From a virus (lineage: Duplodnaviria; Caudoviricetes), in the IMG/VR virus record IMGVR_UViG_3300037424_000564, positions 1 to 64,000 of that record: DNA of 64,000 nucleotides, one strand, 5' to 3'. The notes beneath the pieces are model-generated. The model saw only the letters and a program-made list of their open reading frames with translations, had not been told where the DNA came from and ran no database searches. A program made the translations under genes and the position numbers. Below are positions 49,786 through 61,967 of the stretch, in pieces. Positions within the stretch are counted from its first letter, which is position 1, and every line of letters starts with the position of its first letter.

Positions 49786-50277
49786 TCAAATCCAAATATC
49801 TTTAAGATCGATTCCTAGAGTTCTCATTTTGAAAAACATGTATTCAGAGAAGTTAGGGTGAGTTGCTGGTTTGATCAAAGTCATATTTGTCTGATGAAGC
49901 AATTTATCATCCTTCCAATTATTGCAGGTTTTACAAGCAGTTACACAGTTAAGGTAAGAACTTTTGCCACCTTTTGAAACAGGAAGAACGTGGTCAATGG
50001 TGCAAGTTTTTGGAGTTAGAACTTTACCACAGTATTGACAAGTATGGTTATCTCTAACCAAAACAGTTTTCTTTGAGAATGGAATTTTTTTATTCAAAGA
50101 TTGTTTGACTGCTTTAAGTAAGCGAATAACCTTTGGTAGATACATACCACCATGAATCAATCTATCAGTATTTTTAACAACTTCTACTCGATTTTTCACG
50201 ACTAGTTTAATTGCTTTTTTGATAGATACAACATTCAAAAATTGGTAATCATGAGTTAGAAGAAGTACGGTTGCCAT
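49786..50277 (-). CDS. HNH endonuclease (McrA-like)
   Basis: RDNHTCQYCG, TIDHVLPVSKGG, VTACKTCNNWK. Confidence 0.92.
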   Translation of the reverse strand: MATVLLLTHDYQFLNVVSIKKAIKLVVKNRVEVVKNTDRLIHGGMYLPKVIRLLKAVKQSLNKKIPFSKKTVLVRDNHTCQYCGKVLTPKTCTIDHVLPVSKGGKSSYLNCVTACKTCNNWKDDKLLHQTNMTLIKPATHPNFSEYMFFKMRTLGIDLKDIWI

Positions 50278-50703: not shown

Positions 50704-51258
50704 TTAATAACTTTTACTTTCTTCGTATCGTTGTCTTCTATAAAATCTACCATTACCTATATTTTTTGATCTATGGTTATCAGTTTGAGTATGACAATTA
50801 GGACACAAAATTTCTAAGTTATCTGGTTTGTTATTAGAAGAATTCCCATCTTTATGATGTATTTCGAGTGTTAAGGCAATACCATTCCATTCTGAAATAT
50901 TACACTTACAACAAGATGAATATATTTCTTTGATATATTTTCTTACCGTAGCAGGATCTAATACTTCCCCTAAGCGAAATTTATTTCTATAATATTCTTT
51001 ATTTTTTACTACCTTATTTTCTTTAATTTTTGAAATAGTCCTACAAACACCTAAGTTATTAAAAGAAGCAGCACATGAATGATTGCAATATGTTAATTTC
51101 TTTTTTTCATATGATAATGGAGTCAGGCAAAACTTGCACAATTTTGGATCTTTATTATAATCTTCGATTCGTTTTGACTTTTTTGTTGCTTGTGTTTCTC
51201 TTCCTCGTTTAGCCGCTTCTTCAATTTTATTTTTGTTTTCTTCTGATATGCTTCTCAT
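50704..51258 (-). mobile_element. HNH homing endonuclease
   Basis: LEIHHKDGNSSNNKPDNLEILCPNCH; TATAAATA at 51288..51295. Confidence 0.88.
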
Positions 51259-51322
51259 AAAAATCTCCTATAAATGTTTCTTATAGTTATTTATAAAAAG
51301 CCCATCAGTTTATTCGGACTTG

Positions 51323-51407
51323 AGCCGGAAGAGGGATTCGAACCCCCGATGTAGTTTCCATACCTGATTACAAGTCAGGTGCAATCGACCAACTATGCGA
51401 TTCCGGC
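51323..51407 (-). tRNA. tRNA-Thr(UGU) with 15-nt variable region
   Basis: GCCGGAA/TTCCGGC acceptor, CCTGA-CTTGTAA-TCAGG anticodon arm, TTCGAAT T-loop, U73. Confidence 0.85.
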
Positions 51408-51975
51408 ATTTTAAGGATTTGAACAAATATGTTGTTCTCTCATTGATTCTGTATCTAATATATTAGACCTCGTAGAATTCCTTTTACAACAGCAACGAGT
51501 TTTATTTAAATAATTTATCCCATTCATCTACTATTTTTTGCATTTTTTCTTCCTGATAATCCCAAAAACCAATAAATTCAGCTTCTTCAAATAATCGATT
51601 ACCTTCTGTCATAAATGGTTCTTCTGCATATAAAATCTTACATGGATCGACACTACATCCTTTATTAAGGACAAGGATATCACCCTCACTAAAAAAATCT
51701 TTCCAACAATTAATAGCGCACTCAATTACTTGTGATTCTGAATCAAATCGTTCAGTTTCATCACCCTCACGATAAAAACCACGCTCTTTAAACTTGTTTA
51801 ATTTTGCAGCACTTTCTTTATCTAGAACACGATTTAATGTAATCTTTTCAAGATCATTGTTAGAAAATAGTTGCAAATATCCATAATAATGAATAGCACC
51901 GGGACAAATACCAGCATAGCTTGAAGTTTCTAAACTAACTATTTTTGATGACATTTCGATAGTCCTTTAACTTAG

Positions 51976-52052
51976 CGGGGATAGTAGGAGTTGAACCTAC
52001 ATGTGTCCAATTACACTTTCAAGTGGGTAGAAGCCACAGGTGATATATCCCC
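51976..52052 (-). tRNA. Rearranged (D-arm-less, D-loop-displaced) tRNA-Arg(UCU)-like RNA
   Basis: GGGGATA/TATCCCC; GTGG-CTTCTAC-CCAC; T-arm GTAGG-TTCAACT-CCTAC; G73; 77 nt. Confidence 0.75.
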
Positions 52053-52067
52053 AAATTATTAATTTTT

Positions 52068-52152
52068 TGGTAGGGAAGGAGGGGATCGAACCCTCACCCA
52101 ATTAAGGACAGGATTTTGAGTCCTGCGCGTCTGCCAGTTCCGCCACTTCCCC
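52068..52152 (-). tRNA. tRNA-Leu(CAA)
   Basis: Type II cloverleaf with encoded CCA. Confidence 0.95.
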
Positions 52153-52199
52153 ATGAAAACTGGTCTTTTTAAGGTATGACCAAACCTATCAAGGCTGTG

Positions 52200-52343
52200 T
52201 TAGCCTTGACCAACACTTAGTTTCTTGCCACGTTTTTTATCTCTTTTCTTACGAATTTTAGTATTGGTTGATTTACCAATAGAAGTAACTTTAGTTGATT
52301 TCCGTTTGACTTGCTTAGTCGCATCTGATGCTTTAACTGCCAT
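52200..52343 (-). CDS. 47-aa basic protein ending in GQG (not in the ORF track)
   Basis: MAVKASDATKQVKRKSTKVTSIGKSTNTKIRKKRDKKRGKKLSVGQG; AAGGAG RBS. Confidence 0.6.
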   Translation of the reverse strand: MAVKASDATKQVKRKSTKVTSIGKSTNTKIRKKRDKKRGKKLSVGQG

Positions 52344-52383
52344 TGTATAACTCCTTTGGTTGTTTGTCAATTTAATTAAAAAT

Positions 52384-52477
52384 TGGTACTCCGTGAGGGA
52401 CTTGAACCCCCATCATGCGATAATCTGTCGCCAAGCCTGTGTATAAAACAGGTGCTTTGCCATTAAGCTAACGGAGC
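52384..52477 (-). tRNA. tRNA-Ile(UAU) with 24-nt variable arm
   Basis: CCTGT-TTTATAC-ACAGG; variable-arm stem GCGA/TCGC; CCA. Confidence 0.85.
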
Positions 52478-52485
52478 ATGATCTT

Positions 52486-52570
52486 TGGTAGGGAAGGAGG
52501 GACTCGAACCCTCAAGCAATTAAGCGACGGATTTTAAGTCCGTTGTGAATACCAATTCCACCACAACCCC
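52486..52570 (-). tRNA. tRNA-Leu(UAA)
   Basis: Type II; acceptor stem has two U.U mismatches; CCA. Confidence 0.88.
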
Positions 52571-52576
52571 ATGTTA

Positions 52577-52903
52577 TTACCTTGAATGTGGTGGATGCAG
52601 ACCAGTAGCAGATCGTGCCAGATCAACTAGATCTTTTGCTTCCTTAAGTCTAAAAGAAAAATTTGAACTAAGTTCTTTGATACAAGGAATCGGCGCATTC
52701 CCTTCTTTCAGAAGACGAACAGCAAGAACATAAGCTTCTTGATCTTCGCTTTTAACACCATCAGGAAGACGATATTCGGATACTTGTGAATCAGCGAAAT
52801 ATGCACAGAAACATGCCGGATCTTCTTTAGCGAGACGAATAGCAATTTTCTTGTAATCAACTGCAACATCACCAGTAAGGATATCGATAGCTTTTTTGTA
52901 CAT
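52577..52903 (-). CDS. Protein with ribosomal L7/L12 C-terminal-like motif
   Basis: IPCIKELSSNFSFRLKEAKDLVD. Confidence 0.65.
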   Translation of the reverse strand: MYKKAIDILTGDVAVDYKKIAIRLAKEDPACFCAYFADSQVSEYRLPDGVKSEDQEAYVLAVRLLKEGNAPIPCIKELSSNFSFRLKEAKDLVDLARSATGLHPPHSR

Positions 52904-52970
52904 TATGAACCTCCGTTAGTTAGTTATAAGACATTGTAAACTAAGTTTACTTTTTTGTCAATTTAATTTG

Positions 52971-53043
52971 TGCGGAATGTAGGGATCGAACCTACTTATC
53001 AAGATCTTCAATCTCGCGCATTGACCACAATTGCTTATTCCGC
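52971..53043 (-). tRNA. tRNA-Phe(GAA)
   Basis: CGAGA-TTGAAGA-TCTTG; cloverleaf. Confidence 0.9.
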
Positions 53044-53231
53044 AGATATTAACCTTCTACCATATAGATGAAATGTTTGATTGAGTTACAACGTTCACAC
53101 ATACCACGTTTAGCATAACCAATATTCATCATTGTTTCTAATTCTTTATGACATTCTAAACACAACCAAGTACCAGTATGAATTGTCGGATTCTTTACAG
53201 TATCTAGCATTTTTAGTTCCTTAGTTAAATT

Positions 53232-53315
53232 TGGCAGACGCAGGGGGAGTCGAACCCACAACACAAGTTTTGGAGACTTGCCTAACTCGCCCGGTTAGAT
53301 GAAGTTCCTGCATCT
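53232..53315 (-). tRNA. tRNA-Trp(CCA) with 10-nt acceptor-to-D-stem linker
   Basis: AGATGCA/TGCGTCT, CAAGT-CTCCAAA-ACTTG, G73, CCA. Confidence 0.8.
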
Positions 53316-53320
53316 ATTTT

Positions 53321-53391
53321 TGGTAGTTTACCTTGGAATTGAACCAAGCTATATTTCGATATGAGCGAAACATGATCCCAGATCGTAAACC
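53321..53391 (-). tRNA. tRNA(CAU) (Met or Ile2) with minimal D-arm
   Basis: TTTCG-CTCATAT-CGAAA; D region only GATC-TGG-GATC; CCA. Confidence 0.75.
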
Positions 53392-53401
53392 GTGATACTT
53401 C

Positions 53402-53573
53402 GGGCCAGTAGAAGGATTCGAACCTCCAAAGATCATTAGAATACAACCGCCAGATACGTCTATCTACTTTATGCATTCCCGATCCAACTGTAGCCTTTCA
53501 TATACTTTCAGTCATGACTCCTGCCATATATGAACACTTTCTGTCTGCGTCTTCCAATTCCGCCATACTCGCC
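53402..53573 (-). ncRNA. 172-nt tRNA-like RNA with anticodon arm replaced by a roughly 115-nt structured domain
   Basis: GGCGAGTA/TACTGGCC ends, Leu-type D-arm GCG-GAATTGGAAGA-CGC, T-arm GGAGG-TTCGAAT-CCTTC. Confidence 0.75.
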
Positions 53574-53583
53574 ATGTTTGTAT

Positions 53584-53829
53584 TTAAATAATTCTACTAT
53601 ACTTTTTTATTCTTGTCAATATTTCTTTGCAACAAATTTGATTATCGTCAAAAGATGATTCTATCCTAATTAAGATTCTTTCGTATGTCCAACCAACTGA
53701 AATTCCGGTCAAATAAAATTCATACCAATCAATAACCATATCATTATTATAAATTGAATTCACTATTAAGTCAAGTGGTATTCCTAACGAATCCGACATT
53801 TTAAAAGCATCAAACCCAGAAATAACCAT
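53584..53829 (-). CDS. Small protein resembling an alanyl-tRNA synthetase internal segment
   Basis: ISGFDAFKMSDSLGIPLDL resembles the AlaRS motif SGxDAFKLYDTYGFPLDL. Confidence 0.55.
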   Translation of the reverse strand: MVISGFDAFKMSDSLGIPLDLIVNSIYNNDMVIDWYEFYLTGISVGWTYERILIRIESSFDDNQICCKEILTRIKKYSRII

Positions 53830-53928
53830 TTTATCTTCAGTAGTTATTCCTACAGATCTTAAACCGTAACATTTTTTCCATTTGCGTTTAGCTGTTTCAT
53901 TTGTACCTCGCCTATTCTATTAAATATT

Positions 53929-54002
53929 TGGAGCTAACATTCGGAATCAAACCGAAATCCAGACTGTACCAGAGTCTTATTCTATCATTGAACTATGCCA
54001 GC
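53929..54002 (-). tRNA. tRNA-Thr(GGU)
   Basis: AGACT-CTGGTAC-AGTCT; U73; CCA. Confidence 0.9.
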
Positions 54003-54006
54003 ATTG

Positions 54007-54092
54007 CGGAGAGTGAGGGATTTGAACCCCCAGATGTTTTACCACCGGACTGTTTAGCAAACAGCGTCCCTACCAGATTAGGCCAACTCTCC
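54007..54092 (-). tRNA. tRNA-Ser(GCU)
   Basis: Type II; G73. Confidence 0.93.
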
Positions 54093-54339
54093 AAATGTTC
54101 TAATTCCTACTTGATTCCCTATATCCCAAGCATAATACATTTCATAATCGTTAAAGAAATTATAAGGATTTTCGACTAAACTTTTCAATCCTGCTTGGTA
54201 TCCATCATTATATTCTTGTGTTAGATCTAGTCTAACTGCTTTCCCTTTTGGAACACCGGGATATTTCCTACTCATTATTTTAATTCCTTTAGTATAAATA
54301 GGCTCGATTTGCTGATAGATTATCTTCACACCTATTTTG

Positions 54340-54480
54340 CCAAGGGAGTTGGATTCGAACCAACATTCTTCTTATTACTTGATATTACCCTCTCTTATCT
54401 AAAATCAGTGATATCAACTCTGATTTGTCCATTGAGCAATAATACCTTTCATAAGGTGCTTTCCAGTCAGCTATCCCCCG
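54340..54480 (-). ncRNA. 141-nt tRNA-like RNA without an anticodon loop and with a large insert
   Basis: CGGGGGA/TCCCTTG, D-arm GCT-GACTGGAA-AGC, tetraloop hairpin, long stem domain, T-arm GTTGG-TTCGAAT-CCAAC. Confidence 0.75.
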
Positions 54481-54499
54481 AAAGTTAATCTATTATATT

Positions 54500-54582
54500 T
54501 GGTAGCTCTGGGGAGACTCGAACTCCCAATCCTTTCGGCAACTGCTTCTAAGACAGTCATGTATACATTCCAACACAGAGCC
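54500..54582 (-). tRNA. tRNA-Leu(UAG)
   Basis: Type II; CCA. Confidence 0.92.
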
Positions 54583-54589
54583 ATGTTAA

Positions 54590-54736
54590 TTAAAAATTTT
54601 TAATCTGTTTAAAATATCCACGATATAGACGTTTCATGCTTGCAGGATGAACAGTTTTACTACATCTATCACATGCTTTAGTTTTACTAGTAATTCTTCC
54701 ACATACAACACAAAAACATTTAGAATGTGATTTCAT
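54590..54736 (-). CDS. 48-aa Zn-finger peptide (not in the ORF track)
   Basis: MKSHSKCFCVVCGRITSKTKACDRCSK...; GGAGG RBS. Confidence 0.65.
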   Translation of the reverse strand: MKSHSKCFCVVCGRITSKTKACDRCSKTVHPASMKRLYRGYFKQIKNF

Positions 54737-54748
54737 TAAACCTCCTAG

Positions 54749-54821
54749 TGTGACGTGTCGGTATTGATCCGACTAACAACTGATTCACAGTCAGTCTGCT
54801 CACTTTTTGCACTACGTCACC
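54749..54821 (-). tRNA. tRNA-His(GUG)
   Basis: ACTGA-CTGTGAA-TCAGT; encoded G-1; A73. Confidence 0.88.
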
Positions 54822-55063
54822 ACAACTGTAGTAAATAGTCTCAGGTCGCTACATCGTCTCATACATATTAGTTAATTTAAATTTCATGCCTGAAAGATAA
54901 TTAGAAAAAAATAAGTGCGTACTTTAATGCCCCTCAATGAACTATAATTAGTATCTCATTCTCCGTGATCAGTTAGAGCGATACCTGTTAATTCAGGTCA
55001 ACTGGTGCGCTGTCTTGTATATATGATAAATCATATCACATCTTTAGCGTTTGAGATTATAAG

Positions 55064-55196
55064 AGCCGATAGTCGGAGTCGAACCAACGCTTGTCTTATC
55101 AATGATTTCTTAGATTTAACTAGTCATCTAAAAGCTATCTAAAGACATTATAACAGGATTTTGCAGTCCCTGCTCTAGCCACTGAGCTATACCGGC
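55064..55196 (-). tRNA. tRNA-Cys(GCA) with roughly 65-nt variable-region insertion
   Basis: GCCGGTA/TATCGGC, GCTC/GAGC D-stem, CTGCAAA loop with an extra A, U73. Confidence 0.8.
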
Positions 55197-55204
55197 AATA
55201 TTTT

Positions 55205-55323
55205 TAGCTTTTGATTGTAATCGAACCAATCTATACAAAACCTCAAGGTGACTAGTCTTGATTCAAGCCTTTAGTTGTCAACTACCTGCATTTAGTTTTG
55301 TATAAAATCCATCTTTAAAAGCT
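55205..55323 (-). ncRNA. 119-nt tRNA-like RNA with long stem and branched apical domain
   Basis: AGCTTTT/AAAAGCT, TATACAAAAC/GTTTTGTATA, T-arm GATTG-GTTCGATTA-CAATC. Confidence 0.65.
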
Positions 55324-55325
55324 TG

Positions 55326-55401
55326 AGCAGAATGGGAGAATCGAACTCCTAATTGTCAGCTTGGAAGGCTGATGTTGCTACCTTACAACTTATCATTCTG
55401 C
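55326..55401 (-). tRNA. tRNA-Gly(UCC)
   Basis: TCAGC-CTTCCAA-GCTGA; U73. Confidence 0.9.
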
Positions 55402-55581
55402 ATTGCGGTAGATATGTCAGGTCTACCTTCCTTATTCCAGAGTCGCGTCATGGAAAACCAGAGGACTATTTAAGTTTTCGTATCCTTTAAGACCAGTTGC
55501 CAATTCTGGTCAGGATACTTATTTACCTTAGACGAAAGGTGGTTAATAGTCAAACCTTTAACATAAAATCATTTATTATAA

Positions 55582-55668
55582 TGGTGGGTGTGGAGGGATT
55601 CGAACCCACGCTGGCGTAAACGCCTCCTGATTAAAAGTCAGGTATATTACCACTATATTTACACACCC
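55582..55668 (-). tRNA. tRNA-Lys(UUU) with 16-nt variable arm
   Basis: CCTGA-CTTTTAA-TCAGG; variable-arm GGCG-TTTA-CGCC; CCA. Confidence 0.88.
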
Positions 55669-55677
55669 CAAAAAGGG

Positions 55678-55750
55678 TGGATGCGGTGAGGTTCGAACTC
55701 ACGGCGTATCGGTTAAAAGCCGATTACTCTACCAACTGAGTTACGCATCC
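55678..55750 (-). tRNA. tRNA-Lys(UUU), canonical
   Basis: ATCGG-CTTTTAA-CCGAT. Confidence 0.95.
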
Positions 55751-55760
55751 ATAATATTAA

Positions 55761-55835
55761 GTCATTTTCGTGACTACATACTATGAATGCATGTAGTCAC
55801 GAAAATGACTACATACTATGAATGCATGTAGTCAC
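55761..55835. repeat. 19-bp-stem inverted repeat with a 35-nt-period tandem duplication
   Basis: TGACTACATACTATGAATGCATGTAGTCAC at 55771..55800 and 55806..55835. Confidence 0.85.
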
Positions 55836-56038
55836 TATTGTTTATATTTTTTCATAATTTCATCATATTCCTTTTCTTCTTTGCTTTTAATTGAAAGGTT
55901 AGCTGCATTATCTAAGGTACAAGCAACAATAACAACCAACGTTGCCTCCCATGAAATAAAAAACCCAATGATAAGACAAATAATACCAATAAACCATAGA
56001 ATGCTACTTTTAATCATTTCAGTATCCTTTTTATTGTT

Positions 56039-56112
56039 TGGTAGCTCCTGCCGGTTACGATCCGACTGCTTCATCTTATCAGGATGATGTGTTACCATTA
56101 TACCAAGGAGCT
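56039..56112 (-). tRNA. tRNA-Ile(GAU)
   Basis: TCATC-CTGATAA-GATGA; CCA. Confidence 0.9.
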
Positions 56113-56145
56113 ATGTTTTATATAAGACACTTTAACATCTTTATT

Positions 56146-56499
56146 CTAGTCTGTCAATTTATAAATCATGACATAAACTTTTAAACCTTTTTTAGTTGCA
56201 TAATCAATCATACCTTTTGTCCCGGCAGACTTTCCGTCCCAAATAGCAATGAGCGCATCTGCATAGTCTACCATTTCTCTATTTCGGATATGACCAGCGG
56301 CTTTACCTTTACCATCCCAATCAGGAATAAAAAACTTTATAGAAATATGATTCTTTTCTGCAAACTCTTTACCTAGTCTATCTACCCCTCTAGCACCACC
56401 ACAAACAACTTCAGTTATAACAAATCTAGCTTCTTTAACAGCTTTGAGTATTAGATTATAGTCCGTTATATCTCTACTACCTGCGATGATTACTTTCAT
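56146..56499 (-). CDS. SLOG-superfamily protein (DUF2493/YspA-like)
   Basis: VIIAGSRD, CGGARGVD, AGHIRNREM, WDGKSAGT. Confidence 0.88.
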   Translation of the reverse strand: MKVIIAGSRDITDYNLILKAVKEARFVITEVVCGGARGVDRLGKEFAEKNHISIKFFIPDWDGKGKAAGHIRNREMVDYADALIAIWDGKSAGTKGMIDYATKKGLKVYVMIYKLTD

Positions 56500-57044
56500 T
56501 CTTTTCCTTTGAGATTACCTCTTCAAAAAACCCATGACAAGTTTGATTATTTCTCAAATGAGGAACAGGAAATCTCATTTTATCATTATTTTTCGTATTG
56601 AAGTTTCTTCTTAATTTAATTACAGTTCCGCATATTTTACAAATATATATCATCTTAGCATCATCTTATATACCTTTGATATATAATCTTCCATTCCTAA
56701 ATCTTTTAAAACAATACCTTCATTGATATATCGTTCAACTAATTCTGCTTCTATAGGATACCATTTACCTTGTTTGATATACCATCGTGTTCTACCTGAT
56801 GGATAAGTTCTACATTCTACCTTTTCAAGATACGAATTAATCGTGACATATTTTTCTATTTGAGTCATGGTGTCCTTTCGGGATCGAACCGTTGCAATTA
56901 TATTATTATAGCTATACACCCCGTATTAGCATTAAATATAATCTCTTGTCCATCATCTACTCTACCATTACTTAACATGTATTTCATGATATTTCAACTT
57001 TGCCCAAGTATCACATAGGAGTTGAACCTATGAGGGACATAATA

Positions 57045-57121
57045 TGGTGGGGCTTATCAGACGCTACCCTGATCCTTGTCCCTGATGTACGGTCAGGTTG
57101 TGCTACTTACACCATCACCCC
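57045..57121 (-). pseudogene. Degenerate tRNA-like sequence (GUA in loop) with CCA end
   Basis: CCTGA-CCGTACA-TCAGG; poorly paired acceptor; non-canonical T-loop. Confidence 0.5.
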
Positions 57122-57136
57122 ATATTTGTTATATTG

Positions 57137-57212
57137 AGATTGCAAAGGGAGTCGAACCCTTTATTCGAAGTTTTGCAGACTAAGCCCATTACCACAATGA
57201 GGAAATGCAATC
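57137..57212 (-). tRNA. tRNA-Cys(GCA)
   Basis: CTGCAAA loop, U73; weak anticodon stem. Confidence 0.8.
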
Positions 57213-57235
57213 ATTTTTTTGTTCTAGATATTTTG

Positions 57236-57763
57236 TTATCTCTGAGAGGACCAGTCAGATGAACCACTGTCGATACAGACTAATGTATTGCAATAGTGTT
57301 CTTCTACATGACATCTACAACATAATGGAACACAATTTTGAATCTCTTTTAATATTCTATCCCAAGACCATCCTCTTAGGTTTTTAAATTTACTGTCTTT
57401 CTTTGTTGGGTCTACATGATGTAAATCAATAGCTCCATAATACTTATCATACCCACATTTAATACATTTTCCACCTAAATATTCAATAGCTTTTTTACGT
57501 TTTTCATTACCAACTTTTATTGTATATTTGTTGTGACATTTCGAACAAAATGATCGTTTTTTCCCATAAAATTTATCTGGATTTGTTTCACCACAAATGC
57601 ATTTATGTGTTATATTTCTAGGTGAAATTTCTATCTGTTTAGTATTATGTTCCCCATAAGGAGAGCATTCCAAACAATATTTTCTTGTATTAATTATTTT
57701 AATCTTCCCATCAATATTAACTCTATTTGGGAATTCTTTATTACATTTAGTACAGATTGGCAT
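57236..57763 (-). mobile_element. HNH homing endonuclease within the tRNA array
   Basis: CIKCGY..DLHHVDP..CVPLCCRCH; TATAAATA at 57793..57800. Confidence 0.85.
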
Positions 57764-57843
57764 AACAGCATCCTTTGTAAGATAGATACTATTATTTATA
57801 AAAAATTTATCTTACATTCTCATAATATTATCCTTAGTTGAAT

Positions 57844-57918
57844 TGGCGGGGGATGAAAGAATCGAACTTTCGTCTTCTGGGTCAAAGCCAGATATGTTAC
57901 CACTACAATACAATCCCC
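57844..57918 (-). tRNA. tRNA-Gln(UUG)
   Basis: TCTGG-CTTTGAC-CCAGA; CCA. Confidence 0.92.
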
Positions 57919-57920
57919 TA

Positions 57921-57995
57921 TGGTCGGTGAGGCAGGGATCGAACCTGCATGATCTACGCCCCAAACGTAGTGGTCAGCCATTGACCCACTCACCG
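57921..57995 (-). tRNA. tRNA-Pro(UGG)
   Basis: C1-G72; CTACG-TTTGGGG-CGTAG; CCA. Confidence 0.92.
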
Positions 57996-58021
57996 AATTA
58001 CTAATTAACTTTACCATATTG

Positions 58022-58094
58022 TCGCGGAAGCAGGATTCGAACCTGCGACCTCTTGGTTATGAGCCAAGCAAGATAGCCTCTTCTCTATTCCGCA
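58022..58094 (-). tRNA. tRNA-Met(CAU), elongator-like
   Basis: CTTGG-CTCATAA-CCAAG; lacks the initiator GGG/CCC pairs. Confidence 0.88.
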
Positions 58095-58255
58095 ATAATT
58101 TTAAATAATTCTTTATTGAGTCTATCTTTTTGAACCCTTCGTACACTTCTTGAAATTAATTTTCTTTCTTTCCCATGATAGACATTACAACAGTAACATT
58201 TAAGTCCACCAATTCCACAACGAGAATTCATTTCTTGCCTAAAAATATCAGACAT
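58085..58255 (-). CDS. 56-aa Cys-containing basic protein (not in the ORF track)
   Basis: MSDIFRQEMNSRCGIGGLKCYCC...; AGGAG RBS. Confidence 0.6.
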   Translation of the reverse strand: MSDIFRQEMNSRCGIGGLKCYCCNVYHGKERKLISRSVRRVQKDRLNKELFKIIAE

Positions 58256-58269
58256 TATAATCTCCTATT

Positions 58270-58347
58270 TGGCACTCCTGATCGGGATCGAACCGACAAT
58301 TTTTGCCTTGAAAGGGCAACGACTTTAACCAATTTGTCTACAGGAGC
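58270..58347 (-). tRNA. tRNA-Glu(UUC), copy 1
   Basis: TTGCC-CTTTCAA-GGCAA; CCA. Confidence 0.93.
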
Positions 58348-58388
58348 ATGTTTAGGGATAGAATAATTGAGGGATTGAACCTCATATT

Positions 58389-58466
58389 TGGCACTCCTGA
58401 TCGGGATCGAACCGACAATTTTTGCCTTGAAAGGGCAACGACTTTAACCAATTTGTCTACAGGAGC
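58389..58466 (-). tRNA. tRNA-Glu(UUC), copy 2 (exact 119-bp tandem duplication)
   Basis: Identical to copy 1 at offset 119. Confidence 0.93.
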
Positions 58467-58476
58467 ATGTTTAGGG

Positions 58477-58622
58477 ATAGAATAATTGAGGGATTGAACC
58501 TCATATTTCGAACCATCAATATAAAGACCCATTTTCTTTATACACAAAGGGAATCGAACCCTTACTTGATACGACCAGTATTTAATAGGAATTGAACCTA
58601 ACTACTCACCAAGTTATTCTAT
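58477..58622 (-). ncRNA. Candidate multi-T-loop RNA
   Basis: ATAGAATAA/TTATTCTAT closing stem with three T-arm-like hairpins. Confidence 0.6.
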
Positions 58623-58623
58623 G

Positions 58624-58696
58624 CGCCCTAGACGGGGATCGAACCCGCTACTTTCTGCTCGACAGGCAGACTCCACTACCAAATGGACTCTAAGGC
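58624..58696 (-). tRNA. tRNA-Asp(GUC)
   Basis: TCTGC-CTGTCGA-GCAGA; G73. Confidence 0.92.
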
Positions 58697-58709
58697 ATTA
58701 TTAAATTAT

Positions 58710-58799
58710 TGGCTCCAGTGACAGGCTTCGAACCTGTAAGTTCCTTGCGAGAACGCTTGATTAACAGTCAAGTGGGTTTGCCAATTCTCCTACACTGGA
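58710..58799 (-). tRNA. tRNA-Asn(GUU) with 18-nt variable arm
   Basis: CTTGA-CTGTTAA-TCAAG; variable-arm GTTC/GAAC; G73; CCA. Confidence 0.88.
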
Positions 58800-58812
58800 A
58801 TGATATTAATTT

Positions 58813-58887
58813 TGGCTCCGAGAGCAGGGATCGAACCTGCGACAGGGTGGGTAACAGCCACCTACTCTACCACTGAGTTACCTCGGA
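58813..58887 (-). tRNA. tRNA-Asn(GUU), canonical
   Basis: GGTGG-CTGTTAC-CCACC; CCA. Confidence 0.93.
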
Positions 58888-59037
58888 ATGTTATGCTACC
58901 GATTTACATTAGGCTGATAAAGTGAAATAATCATTTCCTAACTATCTTGTAGCGATGGAAATTCTATCACAATGAATAAGCAGTCTCACATGGAGTTAAA
59001 GTATTCAATTGTGACTTAAGATTGTAGCCGTATTCTT

Positions 59038-59106
59038 TGGTGGAGCGACTAGGACTTGAACCTAGAATTGATGGGTTACAGCCATGCGTGATACCAATTT
59101 CACTCC
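59038..59106 (-). tRNA. Short tRNA-Tyr(GUA) lacking the 5' D-stem strand and variable arm (possible pseudogene)
   Basis: GGAGTGA/TCGCTCC, ATGG-CTGTAAC-CCAT, CCA; 69 nt. Confidence 0.6.
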
Positions 59107-59112
59107 AAAATT

Positions 59113-59194
59113 TGGTGGGTATGGTAGGACTCGAACCTACATGCTTTCGCTACGGTGTTACAGACCGCTGGACCACCAATTGTCCAACATACCC
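59113..59194 (-). tRNA. tRNA-Tyr(GUA), canonical type II
   Basis: GCGGT-CTGTAAC-ACCGT; CCA. Confidence 0.93.
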
Positions 59195-59651
59195 AAAGTA
59201 TGGAGACTAGTTATCGGACTAATCTTTATCCACATTTACTGATCCGATTCAGACTTAAGTTTATATTATTGTTAGACTACACACAGATCATTGTCCAGAG
59301 TTAATAGGCTCCTTCCTCCCTGATATCATCTTCAAATATAATTCAAAAGATTTAAGTTTTCGGGCATACCCAAGGTACTTATTACCTTAAAACTGAAGTA
59401 TAGCAAATAGGTAAATCTAAAATCTAACAACAATGGCTTTGACAGGGAGTTAGTTCCCTCCGGTAGGTATCATGTTGCAAATCATCGAATAGCCACTATT
59501 CATCGAATGATATTGAGAGTTTATTATTGGGATTGGGAAACTCTCTCTTTTACGCAACTGCTTAATAAGCATGGACCCAATTTTGATGTAAGATATTTTA
59601 ATATCTCTTGGAGGGCTTTTCATCCTCGTCGTTATCTTACATCTTGTAATA

Positions 59652-60397
59652 AGATTACTACTTAATCATTTGGTTGTCAATTTAAATCTTCAAGTTTTCA
59701 GGCATACCCAAGGGACTTGATACCTTGTATCTGAGAATTGAGAATTTTGATTTCAGGTGGTTATTCCAAGGACGTCTCCATTCTAATTAGCATTAGAACT
59801 TCACAGACTCACCACTATCCTATACATCCATCAAAACTTATCACTTTTGAAATTATAAACCGTGTCGTAATCTTTTCAGACCCAACAACCATACCTCAAT
59901 AAATAATGGCTGGCTTATAATTCTAGTCAAGCTACTCAATTTTTTCAAATAACTCGTTCAACATTGAAATAATCTTACTACTTAACCATTTGATTGTCAA
60001 TTTAATTCCAAAATAAATTAATTAAGTTAGAGTTCACATCACACACCTTCCTTTCACAAAAGTAGGAGTTATTGATTTTTGATTTTCTCTATCGTAACAT
60101 GATGATTTTACTTTGTCAATTTATTTGTATAAACAGATAGTCATTGATTGCATTTAAACTAAACTCTGCAAAGTTAGATCGCACCTACCTATCGTCAAGC
60201 CTTATTGTCGCCCCCTCTGGTTATCGTCAGGCTCTATTGTCGTATACATCTATCCACTTCTATTGAGTGGGTTTTATTTCTGATTGCAGTCAGAAGGCAC
60301 TTCAATCAATGACTTTCTGTTTATACAAATAAATTGTCTTGTCAAATAACTCGTTCAACATTGAAATAATCTTACTACTTAACCATTTGATTGTCAA
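59652..60397 (-). promoter_or_regulatory. Four tandem sigma70-like promoters (59652..59680, 59972..60000, 60091..60119, 60369..60397)
   Basis: Each is TTGACA-N17-TA(A/C)(T/G)(C/A)T; no ORF of 60 aa or more follows any of them in the ORF track. Confidence 0.8.
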
Positions 60398-60402
60398 TTT
60401 AA
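59945..60402. repeat. 61-bp exact direct repeat (59945..60005 = 60342..60402) containing a promoter and transcript start
   Basis: Base-by-base match at offset 397. Confidence 0.92.
60117..60336. repeat. 34-bp inverted repeat (1 mismatch) enclosing 152 nt with two 21-nt direct repeats
   Basis: 60117..60150 versus 60303..60336; inner repeats at 60190..60210 and 60222..60242. Confidence 0.92.
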
Positions 60403-60413
60403 ATTTTGATATG

Positions 60414-60490
60414 CGCCCCGAGTAGGACTTGAACCTACATGTATCCAATTAACCTTTCAATCGGTTCGTAGCCGAAGGGTATACCGAGAC
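60414..60490 (-). tRNA. Rearranged (D-arm-less, D-loop-displaced) tRNA-Arg(ACG)-like RNA
   Basis: GTCTCGG/TCGGGGC; TCGG-CTACGAA-CCGA; T-arm GTAGG-TTCAAGT-CCTAC; G73; 77 nt. Confidence 0.78.
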
Positions 60491-60504: not shown

Positions 60505-60590
60505 CAGCGAGTGAAGGCATCGAACCATTGACGCTATTAACGTCACCACTGTTTTCAAGACAGCTTGGGGAGCCAACCCCGGCACTCGCC
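60505..60590 (-). tRNA. tRNA-Ser(UGA)
   Basis: CTGT-CTTGAAA-ACAG; long variable arm; G73; weak T-stem. Confidence 0.85.
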
Positions 60591-60737
60591 ATTGATTAAA
60601 CTTTACTACATCTTTATTCAGTTGTCAAATTAAATATAGTAATTTCAACCCTAGAAGGACTTTCGTTAAACACTGCTAAAGCATTTTAAGTGTTAGTTGA
60701 AATCTTTACTGTCCATTAACTATATTATTGCTGTTTG

Positions 60738-61523: not shown

Positions 61524-61967
61524 TTAAATATCTATAATTCCGAAAACAACGTAATCTGGTTGTTGCTGAAAACTAGTAACATAGGAAATCTGTTTGTTAA
61601 TTTCTCTTCCAGTATAAAATCGGTCATCTGAAAGAATTTTATATTCTTTTAAAATTACAAAATCACCTTTGTTGAAGGTACGATCACCGTTATAACGAAT
61701 TTCGAATGTCTTTTCACCACGTAGAATAGCTTCAAAAAATTCAGGTAGTTCTTTTAGTTCATGTGTTTGTCTCTTCTTAATTGGTTCTTTATATGCACAT
61801 GGAGCACAAGTAAATGCTCGTTTATCACCTAAAAAAATTTGTTTACAAATATGACATACATTTGAGTAGTTTCCACCAGCCCATCCTGCTCTAGGTGGTC
61901 TTTTATCACAATTAAATGTATCATAGAATGGTATATTCATATAATTACTTCCTACGTTATAAACCAA
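61524..61967 (-). CDS. ASCH/PUA (DUF3850-like) domain protein
   Basis: HELKELPEFFEAILRGEKTFEIRYNGDRTFNKGD. Confidence 0.85.
   Translation of the reverse strand: MVYNVGSNYMNIPFYDTFNCDKRPPRAGWAGGNYSNVCHICKQIFLGDKRAFTCAPCAYKEPIKKRQTHELKELPEFFEAILRGEKTFEIRYNGDRTFNKGDFVILKEYKILSDDRFYTGREINKQISYVTSFQQQPDYVVFGIIDI

What the first reader, a model, noticed from the sequence alone, without database searches (positions are those of the whole stretch)
51976..60490. Two topologically rewired arginine tRNAs, with the D-loop moved to the 3' side of the anticodon arm
Seen: two 77-nt RNAs align without gaps. RNA1 (51976..52052) is GGGGATA TAT CAC C TGTGG CTTCTAC CCACT TGAAA GTG TAATTGGA CACAT GTAGG TTCAACT CCTAC TATCCCC G. 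RNA2 (60414..60490) is GTCTCGG TAT ACC C TTCGG CTACGAA CCGAT TGAAA GGT TAATTGGA TACAT GTAGG TTCAAGT CCTAC TCGGGGC G. Only 7 nt separate the acceptor and anticodon stems, so there is no D-arm. A D-loop-like AATTGGA(T/C)A sits after the anticodon arm, and a 3-bp helix covaries (CAC/GTG versus ACC/GGT), as do the anticodon stems. Both anticodons read Arg (UCU, ACG). The other 19 amino acids each have a cloverleaf tRNA in this array and Arg has none. Known: bacterial ArgRS uses A20 (after D-loop G18G19), C35, G/U36 and A/G73; both RNAs have GGA, C35 and G73. Inference: the D-stem is rebuilt in trans from a 5' linker and the variable region, giving an L-shaped Arg tRNA with new connectivity. It might evade Arg-specific anticodon nucleases such as colicin D-like enzymes, and tRNAscan-type models would probably miss it.
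Basis: partly seen in the sequence, partly recalled or inferred. Interest (0 to 1): 0.93.

Follow-up and report, generated by a model that had tools for sequence, protein, structure and literature searches.

The report
Rewired phage arginine tRNAs, no cloverleaf
The only two arginine tRNA genes of this 205-kb phage belong to a large, almost purely viral tRNA family in which the D-stem closes around the anticodon arm instead of forming its own hairpin; I found no paper describing this layout, and standard tRNA finders miss it.

Summary
Two gap-free 77-nt genes lie on the minus strand at 51976-52052 (anticodon UCU) and 60414-60490 (ACG). Each has a normal acceptor stem, anticodon loop and T-arm but no D-hairpin. 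A 3-bp helix encloses the anticodon arm, and a D-loop-like UAAUUGGA follows it.

Two pattern scans of viral contigs gave 98 distinct relatives. All have the helix fully paired, with compensatory changes at all three pairs. A model built without the window copies scores them 91.0 and 85.6 bits, against 23 or less for ordinary tRNAs.

- **Identity:** all 61 Arg-anticodon members have A at the position-20 equivalent. All 37 members with A35 (GAU, UAU, CAU, UAC) have U there and discriminator A. This matches the published bacterial Arg and Ile identity sets.
- **Fit to the phage:** there is no cloverleaf tRNA-Arg and no ArgRS, and UCU plus ACG cover about 99% of its Arg codons.
- **Detection:** ARAGORN called 0 of 96.
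- **Spread:** 596 Gb of cellular genomes held two copies, both on short tRNA-bearing MAG contigs (one packed with 27 tRNAs).

They are most likely working, host-charged, L-shaped tRNAs. Expression, charging and any anti-defence role are untested. This scan has met the family before on other phage DNA.

The parts
51976..52052 (-). RNA1: rewired tRNA-Arg(UCU), 77 nt, no encoded CCA
   Evidence: leave-out model R2 91.0 bits
52046..52052 (-). RNA1 acceptor stem 5' strand, pairs with 51977-51983; discriminator G at 51976
   Evidence: 7 of 7 pairs; covaries in the family
52043..52045 (-). RNA1 UAU connector: U8 and A9 equivalents, then U at the position-22 equivalent
   Evidence: T8 and A9 are invariant and T10 is over 90% in 73 and 77 sequences, although the search patterns did not fix them
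52040..52042 (-). RNA1 helix H 5' strand (CAC), takes the place of D-stem positions 23-25
   Evidence: pairs with 52014-52016; covariation
52022..52038 (-). RNA1 anticodon arm: a U.U mismatch plus 4 bp, loop CUUCUAC, anticodon UCU at 52029-52031
52017..52021 (-). RNA1 UGAAA linker from the anticodon stem to helix H
   Evidence: relatives found by the model show YRGAAA-type variants
52014..52016 (-). RNA1 helix H 3' strand (GUG), takes the place of D-stem positions 10-12
52001..52013 (-). RNA1 D-loop-like UAAUUGGA (equivalents of A14, A15, G18, G19, A20), then CACAU ending in the U48 equivalent
   Evidence: position 20 is coupled to the anticodon
51984..52000 (-). RNA1 T-arm, 5 bp and loop UUCAACU
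60414..60490 (-). RNA2: rewired tRNA-Arg(ACG), 77 nt, no encoded CCA
   Evidence: Rfam tRNA model only 18.9 bits; R2 85.6 bits
60478..60480 (-). RNA2 helix H 5' strand (ACC)
   Evidence: pairs with 60452-60454
60460..60476 (-). RNA2 anticodon arm, loop CUACGAA, anticodon ACG at 60467-60469
60452..60454 (-). RNA2 helix H 3' strand (GGU)
60439..60451 (-). RNA2 D-loop-like UAAUUGGA, then UACAU
60422..60438 (-). RNA2 T-arm
52342..52370 (-). Promoter-like site (TTGACA, 17 nt, TACAAT) upstream of tRNA-Leu(CAA) 52068-52152 and RNA1
   Evidence: consensus match only
60600..60628 (-). Promoter-like site (TTGACA, 17 nt, TAAAGT) upstream of tRNA-Ser(UGA) 60505-60591 and RNA2
   Evidence: consensus match only

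Best explanation
Both genes encode working arginine tRNAs that the host ArgRS charges, and they decode AGA/AGG (UCU) and CGU/CGC/CGA (ACG, presumably after A34 to inosine).

The chain order differs from the cloverleaf. After U8-A9 it runs straight into the strand that normally forms D-stem positions 22-25. It continues through one C (a position-26 equivalent) into the anticodon arm and returns through a UGAAA linker. It then forms the 10-12 strand of the D-stem, so the D-stem encloses the anticodon arm. Next it runs through a normal-looking D-loop (A14, A15, G18, G19, A20, A21 equivalents) and reaches the T-arm through CAU, where U stands for position 48.

The four-way cloverleaf junction therefore becomes a three-way junction. 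The stack (U.U plus 3 bp, one nt, U.U plus 4 bp) keeps the ten layers of the usual D-stem plus anticodon-stem stack. The elbow contacts (G18/G19 with the T-loop, U8-A14, A15-U48) can be kept.

Shown: the sequence anatomy, the covarying helix, the coupling of identity positions, the family's spread, and the fit to the phage's codon use.

Inferred: the L-shape, charging by ArgRS, CCA addition (the phage has a CCA-adding enzyme homologue) and use on the ribosome. Why phages keep this design is unknown.
For: - **Helix H:** 100% of 219 cells pair. Changes on both sides occur in 27, 30 and 12 sequences at the three pairs, with four pair types each and no G-U. The whole-structure covariation score is 0.926 against 0.208 for shuffles and 0.17 or less for slid partners. 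RNAalifold finds the helix independently. It is among the highest mutual-information pairs.
- **Family size:** The model also finds members that do not fit the patterns.
- **Separation from ordinary tRNAs:** the leave-out model gives 91.0 and 85.6 bits, against 23 or less for all other tRNAs in the window.
- **Identity coupling:** 61 of 61 Arg anticodons have A20. All 37 members with A35 have U20 and A73. This matches the bacterial determinants for Arg (A20, C35, U/G36, A/G73) and Ile (U20, A35, U36, A73) listed in PMC9976931.
- **Unforced conservation:** U8, A9, C14, U15, A37 and A58 are invariant although the patterns did not fix them.
- **Complementarity:** 25 rewired Arg genes lie in loci that also hold canonical tRNA-Arg. 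Only 2 share an anticodon with one, against 7.9 expected (P = 0.002).
- **This phage:** no canonical tRNA-Arg and no ArgRS. Arg codons are AGA 732, CGT 403, CGA 136, AGG 71, CGC 63, CGG 19. It has a CCA-adding enzyme homologue. Sigma-70-like promoters head the tRNA pairs.
- **Viral restriction:** the same 19-base pattern in 596 Gb of cellular genomes gave 16 hits. Only 2 were tRNA-like, both on short tRNA-bearing MAG contigs, one of them packed with 27 tRNAs. The 14 chance hits had poor pairing.
Against: - There is no direct evidence of transcription, processing, aminoacylation or ribosomal use. The window's DNA occurs only in three sediment DNA runs.
- For a relative (L106), the only support is one 146-nt contig in a wastewater RNA library, which may hold DNA.
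- The proposed fold lies 4.9 kcal/mol (RNA1) and 5.9 kcal/mol (RNA2) above the single-sequence minimum-energy fold.
- The helix has only 3 bp, and the top pair of the anticodon stem is mostly U.U (60 of 73).
- Many conserved columns (UGAAA, UAA, UGG, ACAU, GGUUC) were fixed by my search patterns and do not count as conservation.
- The A15-U48 idea has one compensatory case (G with C) and one that does not fit (G with G).
- No 3D model could be made.
Confidence: 0.8

Rival explanations
1. A working tRNA without a canonical elbow. Helix H only lengthens the anticodon arm, the 13-nt strand is a loose connector, and the molecule is a boomerang like D-armless mitochondrial tRNA-Ser(AGY).
For: The Rfam model treats RNA1 as a tRNA with a deleted D-arm and a long insertion. 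An engineered D-armless tRNA works in E. coli translation without changes to the machinery (PMC11551756). No tertiary contact could be tested here.
Against: The connector carries A14, A15, G18, G19 and A21 equivalents in D-loop spacing. Its position 20 switches between A and U exactly with the amino-acid identity. That is expected only if the synthetase sees it as a D-loop. The T-loop keeps UUCRA and A58.
Confidence: 0.1
2. A non-decoding tRNA mimic that titrates a host tRNA nuclease, a defence sensor or a synthetase rather than serving in translation.
For: Phage tRNAs are known to counter tRNA-targeting defences (PMC10264068, PMC11464382, PMC11555353, listed). No expression or charging data exist.
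Against: The anticodons complement the canonical Arg tRNAs beside them (P = 0.002). In this phage they are the only Arg tRNAs in an otherwise complete set and match its two main Arg codon groups. The identity elements for charging are kept.
Confidence: 0.06
3. Decaying tRNA pseudogenes, or precursors that are rearranged at the RNA level into a normal cloverleaf, like permuted or split tRNA genes.
For: The array holds other aberrant tRNA-like genes. HNH endonuclease genes are interspersed.
Against: There are 98 distinct sequences, all of 76 or 77 nt, with compensatory changes in all four helices. The acceptor strands are in the normal order at the two ends. Removing any single segment leaves no anticodon arm, and a normal order would need two cuts and two ligations inside the core (read from the sequence).
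Confidence: 0.03

Closest known systems
Canonical class I bacterial and phage tRNA-Arg (Rfam RF00005), such as E. coli tRNA-Arg(ACG)
   Same: 7-bp acceptor stem, 5-bp T-stem with a UUCRA loop, 7-nt anticodon loop with U33 and A37, and the Arg determinants A20, C35, U/G36 and A/G73. Total length is 77 nt. The D-loop sequence has GG.
   Different: There is no D-hairpin. The two D-stem strands lie on either side of the anticodon arm, giving a three-way rather than a four-way junction. The variable loop is reduced to 3 nt, and a 5-nt UGAAA linker is present. RNA2 falls below the Rfam cut-off, and ARAGORN finds neither gene.
D-armless mitochondrial tRNAs (metazoan mt-tRNA-Ser(AGY)) and the engineered mini HisT (PMC11551756)
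   Same: No D-hairpin between the acceptor and anticodon stems. They show that translation can tolerate such tRNAs.
   Different: Those lack a D-loop and G18/G19 altogether and fold into a Y or boomerang shape. Here all D-arm parts are kept but joined in another order, and the setting is phage and bacterial translation.
Permuted and split tRNA genes (Cyanidioschyzon merolae, Nanoarchaeum)
   Same: The order of tRNA segments in the gene differs from the standard.
   Different: In those, the 3' half precedes the 5' half or lies elsewhere, and processing restores a normal cloverleaf. Here the ends are in normal order and the rearrangement lies inside the core, with no sign of RNA-level repair.
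allo-tRNAs and tRNA-Sec with 8/4, 9/3 or 8/5 acceptor branches (PMC5389517)
   Same: Natural, conserved departures from the standard cloverleaf, found in metagenomes and phages and missed or misread by standard tools.
   Different: Those change stem lengths but keep the four-arm order. Here the arm lengths are standard (7/5) and the connectivity changes.

Membership tests
Canonical tRNA (Rfam RF00005 cloverleaf) | [quoted passage not shown] | tested here: not met
   Only 7 nt lie there. cmscan deletes 15 D-arm positions.
Canonical tRNA (Rfam RF00005 cloverleaf) | Score at or above the gathering cut-off of 29 bits | tested here: inconclusive
   RNA1 scores 31.3 bits and RNA2 scores 18.9 bits.
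Canonical tRNA (Rfam RF00005 cloverleaf) | 7-bp acceptor stem, 5-bp T-stem with a UUCRA loop, 7-nt anticodon loop with U33 and R37 | tested here: met
Bacterial tRNA-Arg identity set (PMC9976931) | A20, C35, U/G36, A/G73 | tested here: met
   Both copies have GGA, C35, U36 or G36, and G73. All 61 Arg-type relatives have A at the position-20 equivalent. The identity table was read. Charging itself was not tested.
Rewired (D-stem around the anticodon arm) phage tRNA-Arg/Ile family, named here and in earlier notes of this scan | 3-bp covarying helix enclosing the anticodon arm, UAU before it, a YRGAAA linker, and a D-loop-like UAANUGGN after it | tested here: met
   Model R2, built without the window copies, gives 91.0 and 85.6 bits.
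D-armless mitochondrial-type tRNA | D-arm replaced by a short connector, with no G18/G19 and T-loop elbow | tested here: not met
   The D-loop-like segment with GG is kept and coupled to identity. The elbow contact itself cannot be tested with these tools.
Permuted tRNA gene | The 3' half lies upstream of the 5' half, so the acceptor strands are not at the gene's ends | tested here: not met
   The acceptor strands are at the two ends and pair 7 of 7.
allo-tRNA (8/4 or 9/3) | Acceptor stem longer than 7 bp with a shortened T-stem | tested here: not met
   The arrangement is 7/5 in both copies.

The most novel reading that the evidence does not exclude
This is a natural, widespread class of elongator tRNAs (Arg, Ile and a few others) that work with bacterial ribosomes and host synthetases without a cloverleaf. 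A strand-swapped D-stem keeps the L-shape with a new backbone path. The class arose once in phages, spread as tRNA cassettes and switched identity by changing position 35 together with position 20. It may persist because it escapes a host factor that reads the D-arm hairpin or the core of tRNA-Arg and tRNA-Ile.
Probability: 0.55. Interest if true: 0.92.

Novelty: new variant of a known kind. Interest (0 to 1): 0.87.

Why it matters
[quoted passage not shown] If these phage tRNAs work, that rule has a natural exception with hundreds of members.

- **Translation machinery:** it would show that ArgRS, IleRS, EF-Tu, RNase P and the ribosome accept a different chain path through the tRNA core.
- **Annotation:** phage tRNA counts and codon-compensation studies undercount Arg and Ile tRNAs. 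ARAGORN found 0 of 96, most cultured-phage copies are unannotated, and one is filed as tRNA-Phe.
- **Engineering:** the design offers a natural scaffold for engineered or orthogonal tRNAs.
- **Phage-host conflict:** it gives a testable lead for conflicts over tRNA.

Tried and rejected
- **Local D-like hairpin in RNA1 (GUGU/ACAC), part of its minimum-energy fold.** Rejected as a family feature: 56% of cells pair, and the 38-49 pair holds in 5 of 73 sequences.
- **Pseudogene or RNA-rearrangement readings.** Rejected on covariation and on the end order of the gene.
- **Colicin D-type anticodon-nuclease escape.** Not testable here and not favoured, because the anticodon loops are ordinary.
- **Expression.** The window occurs only in three sediment DNA runs. 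For relative L106, RNA libraries gave one 146-nt contig across the gene, and in two transcriptome runs a relative phage carried 74 other letters in that slot. This is no proof of transcription.
- **Levitt-pair covariation (columns 42 and 52).** One supporting case and one contrary case, so no conclusion.
- **BLAST of a divergent 81-nt variant (L137) against cultured phages.** Nothing useful.
- **Pattern scans for the neighbouring 66-nt GUA gene.** The first had a miscounted gap and found nothing. The second found mostly ordinary tRNAs and one full-cloverleaf relative, L167.
- **Pfam and PHROGs on the ORF after RNA1 (51502-51954).** No family.
- **An earlier scan note.** It says part of the same claim on other DNA fell on checking. 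I could not learn which part, so I keep "viral" as "almost entirely viral" and "undescribed" as "not found in the searched library".


Full report
**What is in the sequence**

The two 77-nt stretches are at 51976-52052 and 60414-60490. They align without a gap.

Each has these parts, in order:
- a 7-bp acceptor stem;
- UAU;
- three bases (CAC or ACC);
- one C;
- an anticodon arm whose top pair is U.U, with loops CUUCUAC or CUACGAA;
- UGAAA;
- three bases complementary to the first three (GUG or GGU);
- UAAUUGGA;
- C/U-ACAU;
- a 5-bp T-stem with a UUCAAnU loop;
- the 3' acceptor strand and discriminator G.

Neither gene encodes CCA. ARAGORN finds neither. The Rfam tRNA model scores RNA1 at 31.3 bits, by deleting the D-arm and inserting 18 nt before the T-arm. 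It scores RNA2 at 18.9 bits, below the cut-off of 29.

**Genome context**

The window is the first 64 kb of a 205,056-bp IMG/VR virus record with 30.5% G+C. Its DNA is found in sediment metagenomes.

ARAGORN and Rfam together find tRNAs for 19 amino acids in the array at 51.3-60.9 kb. Outside the window there is a second tRNA-Met and a CUA suppressor tRNA. There is no canonical tRNA-Arg anywhere. However, Trp is atypical and weak, and several others are odd (see the last section).

The phage has no ArgRS homologue and does have a CCA-adding enzyme homologue. In its long ORFs the Arg codons are AGA 732, CGT 403, CGA 136, AGG 71, CGC 63 and CGG 19. Anticodons UCU and ACG (read as ICG) would therefore cover about 99% of them.

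Sigma-70-like sites with a TTGACA -35 box lie upstream of the pairs Leu(CAA)+RNA1 and Ser(UGA)+RNA2. These are consensus matches only.

**A large family**

A 19-base pattern from the conserved core found 34 viral contigs, and 32 of them showed the same architecture. A looser pattern left all three helix positions and two D-loop positions free.

Together the two scans gave 98 distinct sequences with good acceptor and T stems. Every one has helix H paired 3 of 3.

On 73 diverse members (alignment A2):
- helix H is paired in 100% of 219 cells;
- changes on both sides occur in 27, 30 and 12 sequences at the three pairs;
- each pair shows four pair types and no G-U;
- the whole-structure covariation score is 0.926, against 0.208 in shuffles and 0.17 or less with slid partners.

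RNAalifold predicts the same helix unaided, and its pairs rank among the top mutual-information pairs.

The alternative local hairpin that RNAfold draws for RNA1 is paired in only 56% of cells.

A covariance model built only from other contigs scores the window copies at 91.0 and 85.6 bits. All ordinary tRNAs in the window score 23 bits or less. A few divergent variants with longer linkers or variable regions score 44-69 bits.

**Evidence that they are used as tRNAs**

1. *Identity coupling.* All 61 members with Arg anticodons (UCU 29, ACG 22, CCU 7, UCG 2, GCG 1) have A at the base after GG. All 37 with A35 (GAU 16, UAU 16, CAU 4, UAC 1) have U there and discriminator A. The published bacterial identity sets are A20, C35, U/G36, A/G73 for Arg, and U20, A35, U36, A73 among others for Ile (PMC9976931). 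The relocated loop therefore behaves as a D-loop read by the synthetase.
2. *Unforced conservation.* U8, A9, the C before the anticodon stem, U at the stem top, A37 and A58 are invariant although no pattern fixed them.
3. *Complementarity.* 25 rewired Arg genes sit in loci that also hold canonical tRNA-Arg. Only 2 share an anticodon with one, against 7.9 expected from shuffling (P = 0.002).
4. *This phage.* They are the only Arg tRNAs in an otherwise complete set, and they fit its codon use.

**How it most likely works**

This section is inference from anatomy and from standard tRNA geometry.

In a cloverleaf the strand 22-25, 26, 27-31 runs continuously down the stack of D-stem on anticodon stem, and 39-43 and 10-13 form the other side. 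Here the bases after U8-A9 take the 22-25 side, the single C takes position 26, and the UGAAA linker joins 43 to the 10-12 strand.

That strand continues into U-A14-A15-U-U-G18-G19-A20-N-A21 and then C-A-U48 into the T-stem.

The stack keeps ten layers: U.U plus 3 bp, one nt, then U.U plus 4 bp. The bases needed for U8-A14, A15-U48 and the GG/T-loop elbow are all present.

The result is a three-way junction whose long strand mimics the D-loop. Nearest-neighbour energies do not favour this fold for single sequences. It lies 4.9 and 5.9 kcal/mol above the minimum, so tertiary contacts must help.

**Distribution and annotation**

The same 19-base pattern in 596 Gb of bacterial and archaeal genomes gave 16 hits. 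Fourteen are chance matches with poor pairing. Two are true members, on 3-4 kb MAG contigs that carry other tRNAs, one of them packed with 27 tRNAs. The family is therefore almost entirely viral.

Cultured carriers include many Streptomyces phages, Microbacterium phages, two crAss-like phages from animal faeces, a Vibrio phage and a Rhizobium phage.

The genes are mostly unannotated. In Streptomyces phage Mildred21 the gene is annotated with the right ends but as tRNA-Phe(gaa), a 2-nt register shift of the UCG anticodon. ARAGORN called 0 of 96. Rfam 15 has no dedicated family.

**Novelty**

Seven full-text searches found no description of this layout. A 2024 paper states that all known bacterial tRNAs are cloverleaves (PMC11551756).

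Earlier notes of this scan report the same family on many other phage genomes and reach the same reading. One carries a remark that part of the claim fell on checking, with no detail given. I formed my reading before seeing those notes and tested each point again here.

**What stays open**

There is no direct proof of transcription, processing, charging or decoding, and no 3D model.

Nothing bears on why phages keep this design. A factor that reads the D-hairpin or the core, neutral spread with mobile tRNA cassettes next to HNH genes, or some other cause all remain possible.

**Other oddities in the array**

Several further tRNA-like genes are non-standard:
- a 66-nt GUA gene that lacks one D-stem strand;
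- an atypical Trp;
- a 133-nt gene with a 60-nt insert;
- long variable arms in Ile, Lys, Asn and Thr tRNAs;
- an 8/4-type Gly.

Noticed in passing
window 59041-59106 (-): A 66-nt tRNA-like gene with anticodon GUA and encoded CCA. It has a 7-bp acceptor stem and AAUUGGUAUCACG where the D-arm should be, with no 5' D-stem strand. Rfam scores it 37.6 bits and ARAGORN misses it. A relative in L167 has the full cloverleaf. It sits 6 nt after a normal tRNA-Tyr.
   Followed up: partly
window about 53236-53316 (-): Atypical tRNA-Trp(CCA) with acceptor AGAUGCA/UGCGUCU, discriminator G and encoded CCA. It has G at position 8 and an oversized D-region. It scores only 22 bits on Rfam's tRNA-Sec model and ARAGORN misses it.
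   Followed up: partly
window 55064-55196 (-): A 133-nt tRNA-like gene (Rfam 38.3 bits) with a GCA anticodon region and an insert of about 60 nt after the anticodon arm. It could be a long extra arm or an intron.
   Followed up: no
window 52384-52477, 55582-55668, 58710-58799, 51322-51407 (-): tRNA-Ile(UAU) of 94 nt, Lys(UUU) of 87 nt, Asn(GUU) of 90 nt and Thr(UGU) of 86 nt carry long class-II-like variable arms. This is unusual for these amino acids. The Lys and Asn genes sit next to normal-length copies with the same anticodon.
   Followed up: no
window 55325-55401 and 57136-57212 (-): ARAGORN draws tRNA-Gly(UCC) with an 8-bp acceptor stem, a 4-bp T-stem and a weak D-stem. tRNA-Cys(GCA) has a mismatched anticodon stem. 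For both, the best Rfam hit is the tRNA-Sec model (37.9 and 33.9 bits).
   Followed up: partly
genome G000:C1:202687-202759 (-), outside the window: Suppressor tRNA with anticodon CUA. Reading TAG through adds 6 ORFs of 150 aa or more and 38 in-frame TAG codons, which suggests some TAG recoding.
   Followed up: partly
genome G000:C1:185363-185719 (+), outside the window: CCA-adding enzyme (PolyA_pol) homologue in a 415-aa open frame. This fits tRNA genes that lack an encoded CCA.
   Followed up: no
L146 301-376 (Streptomyces phage Mildred21, MF155946.1 91367-91442): A rewired tRNA-Arg(UCG) is annotated as tRNA-Phe(gaa), directly after an HNH endonuclease gene. Sister phages leave the same gene unannotated.
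   Followed up: yes
L106 2765-2842: In two transcriptome runs of one organism, a related phage (90-99% alike over the flanks) has 74 other letters exactly in the slot of the rewired tRNA-Ile(GAU) gene. This suggests cassette-like replacement of single tRNA genes.
   Followed up: partly
window 55762-55808 (-): A 20-bp hairpin just after tRNA-Lys. It draws weak microRNA-model hits and scores as terminator-like.
   Followed up: no
window 56146-56499 (-) and 61524-61967 (-): Small ORFs inside or beside the tRNA array match YAcAr/SLOG (E = 7e-13) and DUF3850/ASCH (E = 7.5e-21). HNH endonuclease ORFs lie at 49786-50277, 50704-51258 and 57236-57763.
   Followed up: no
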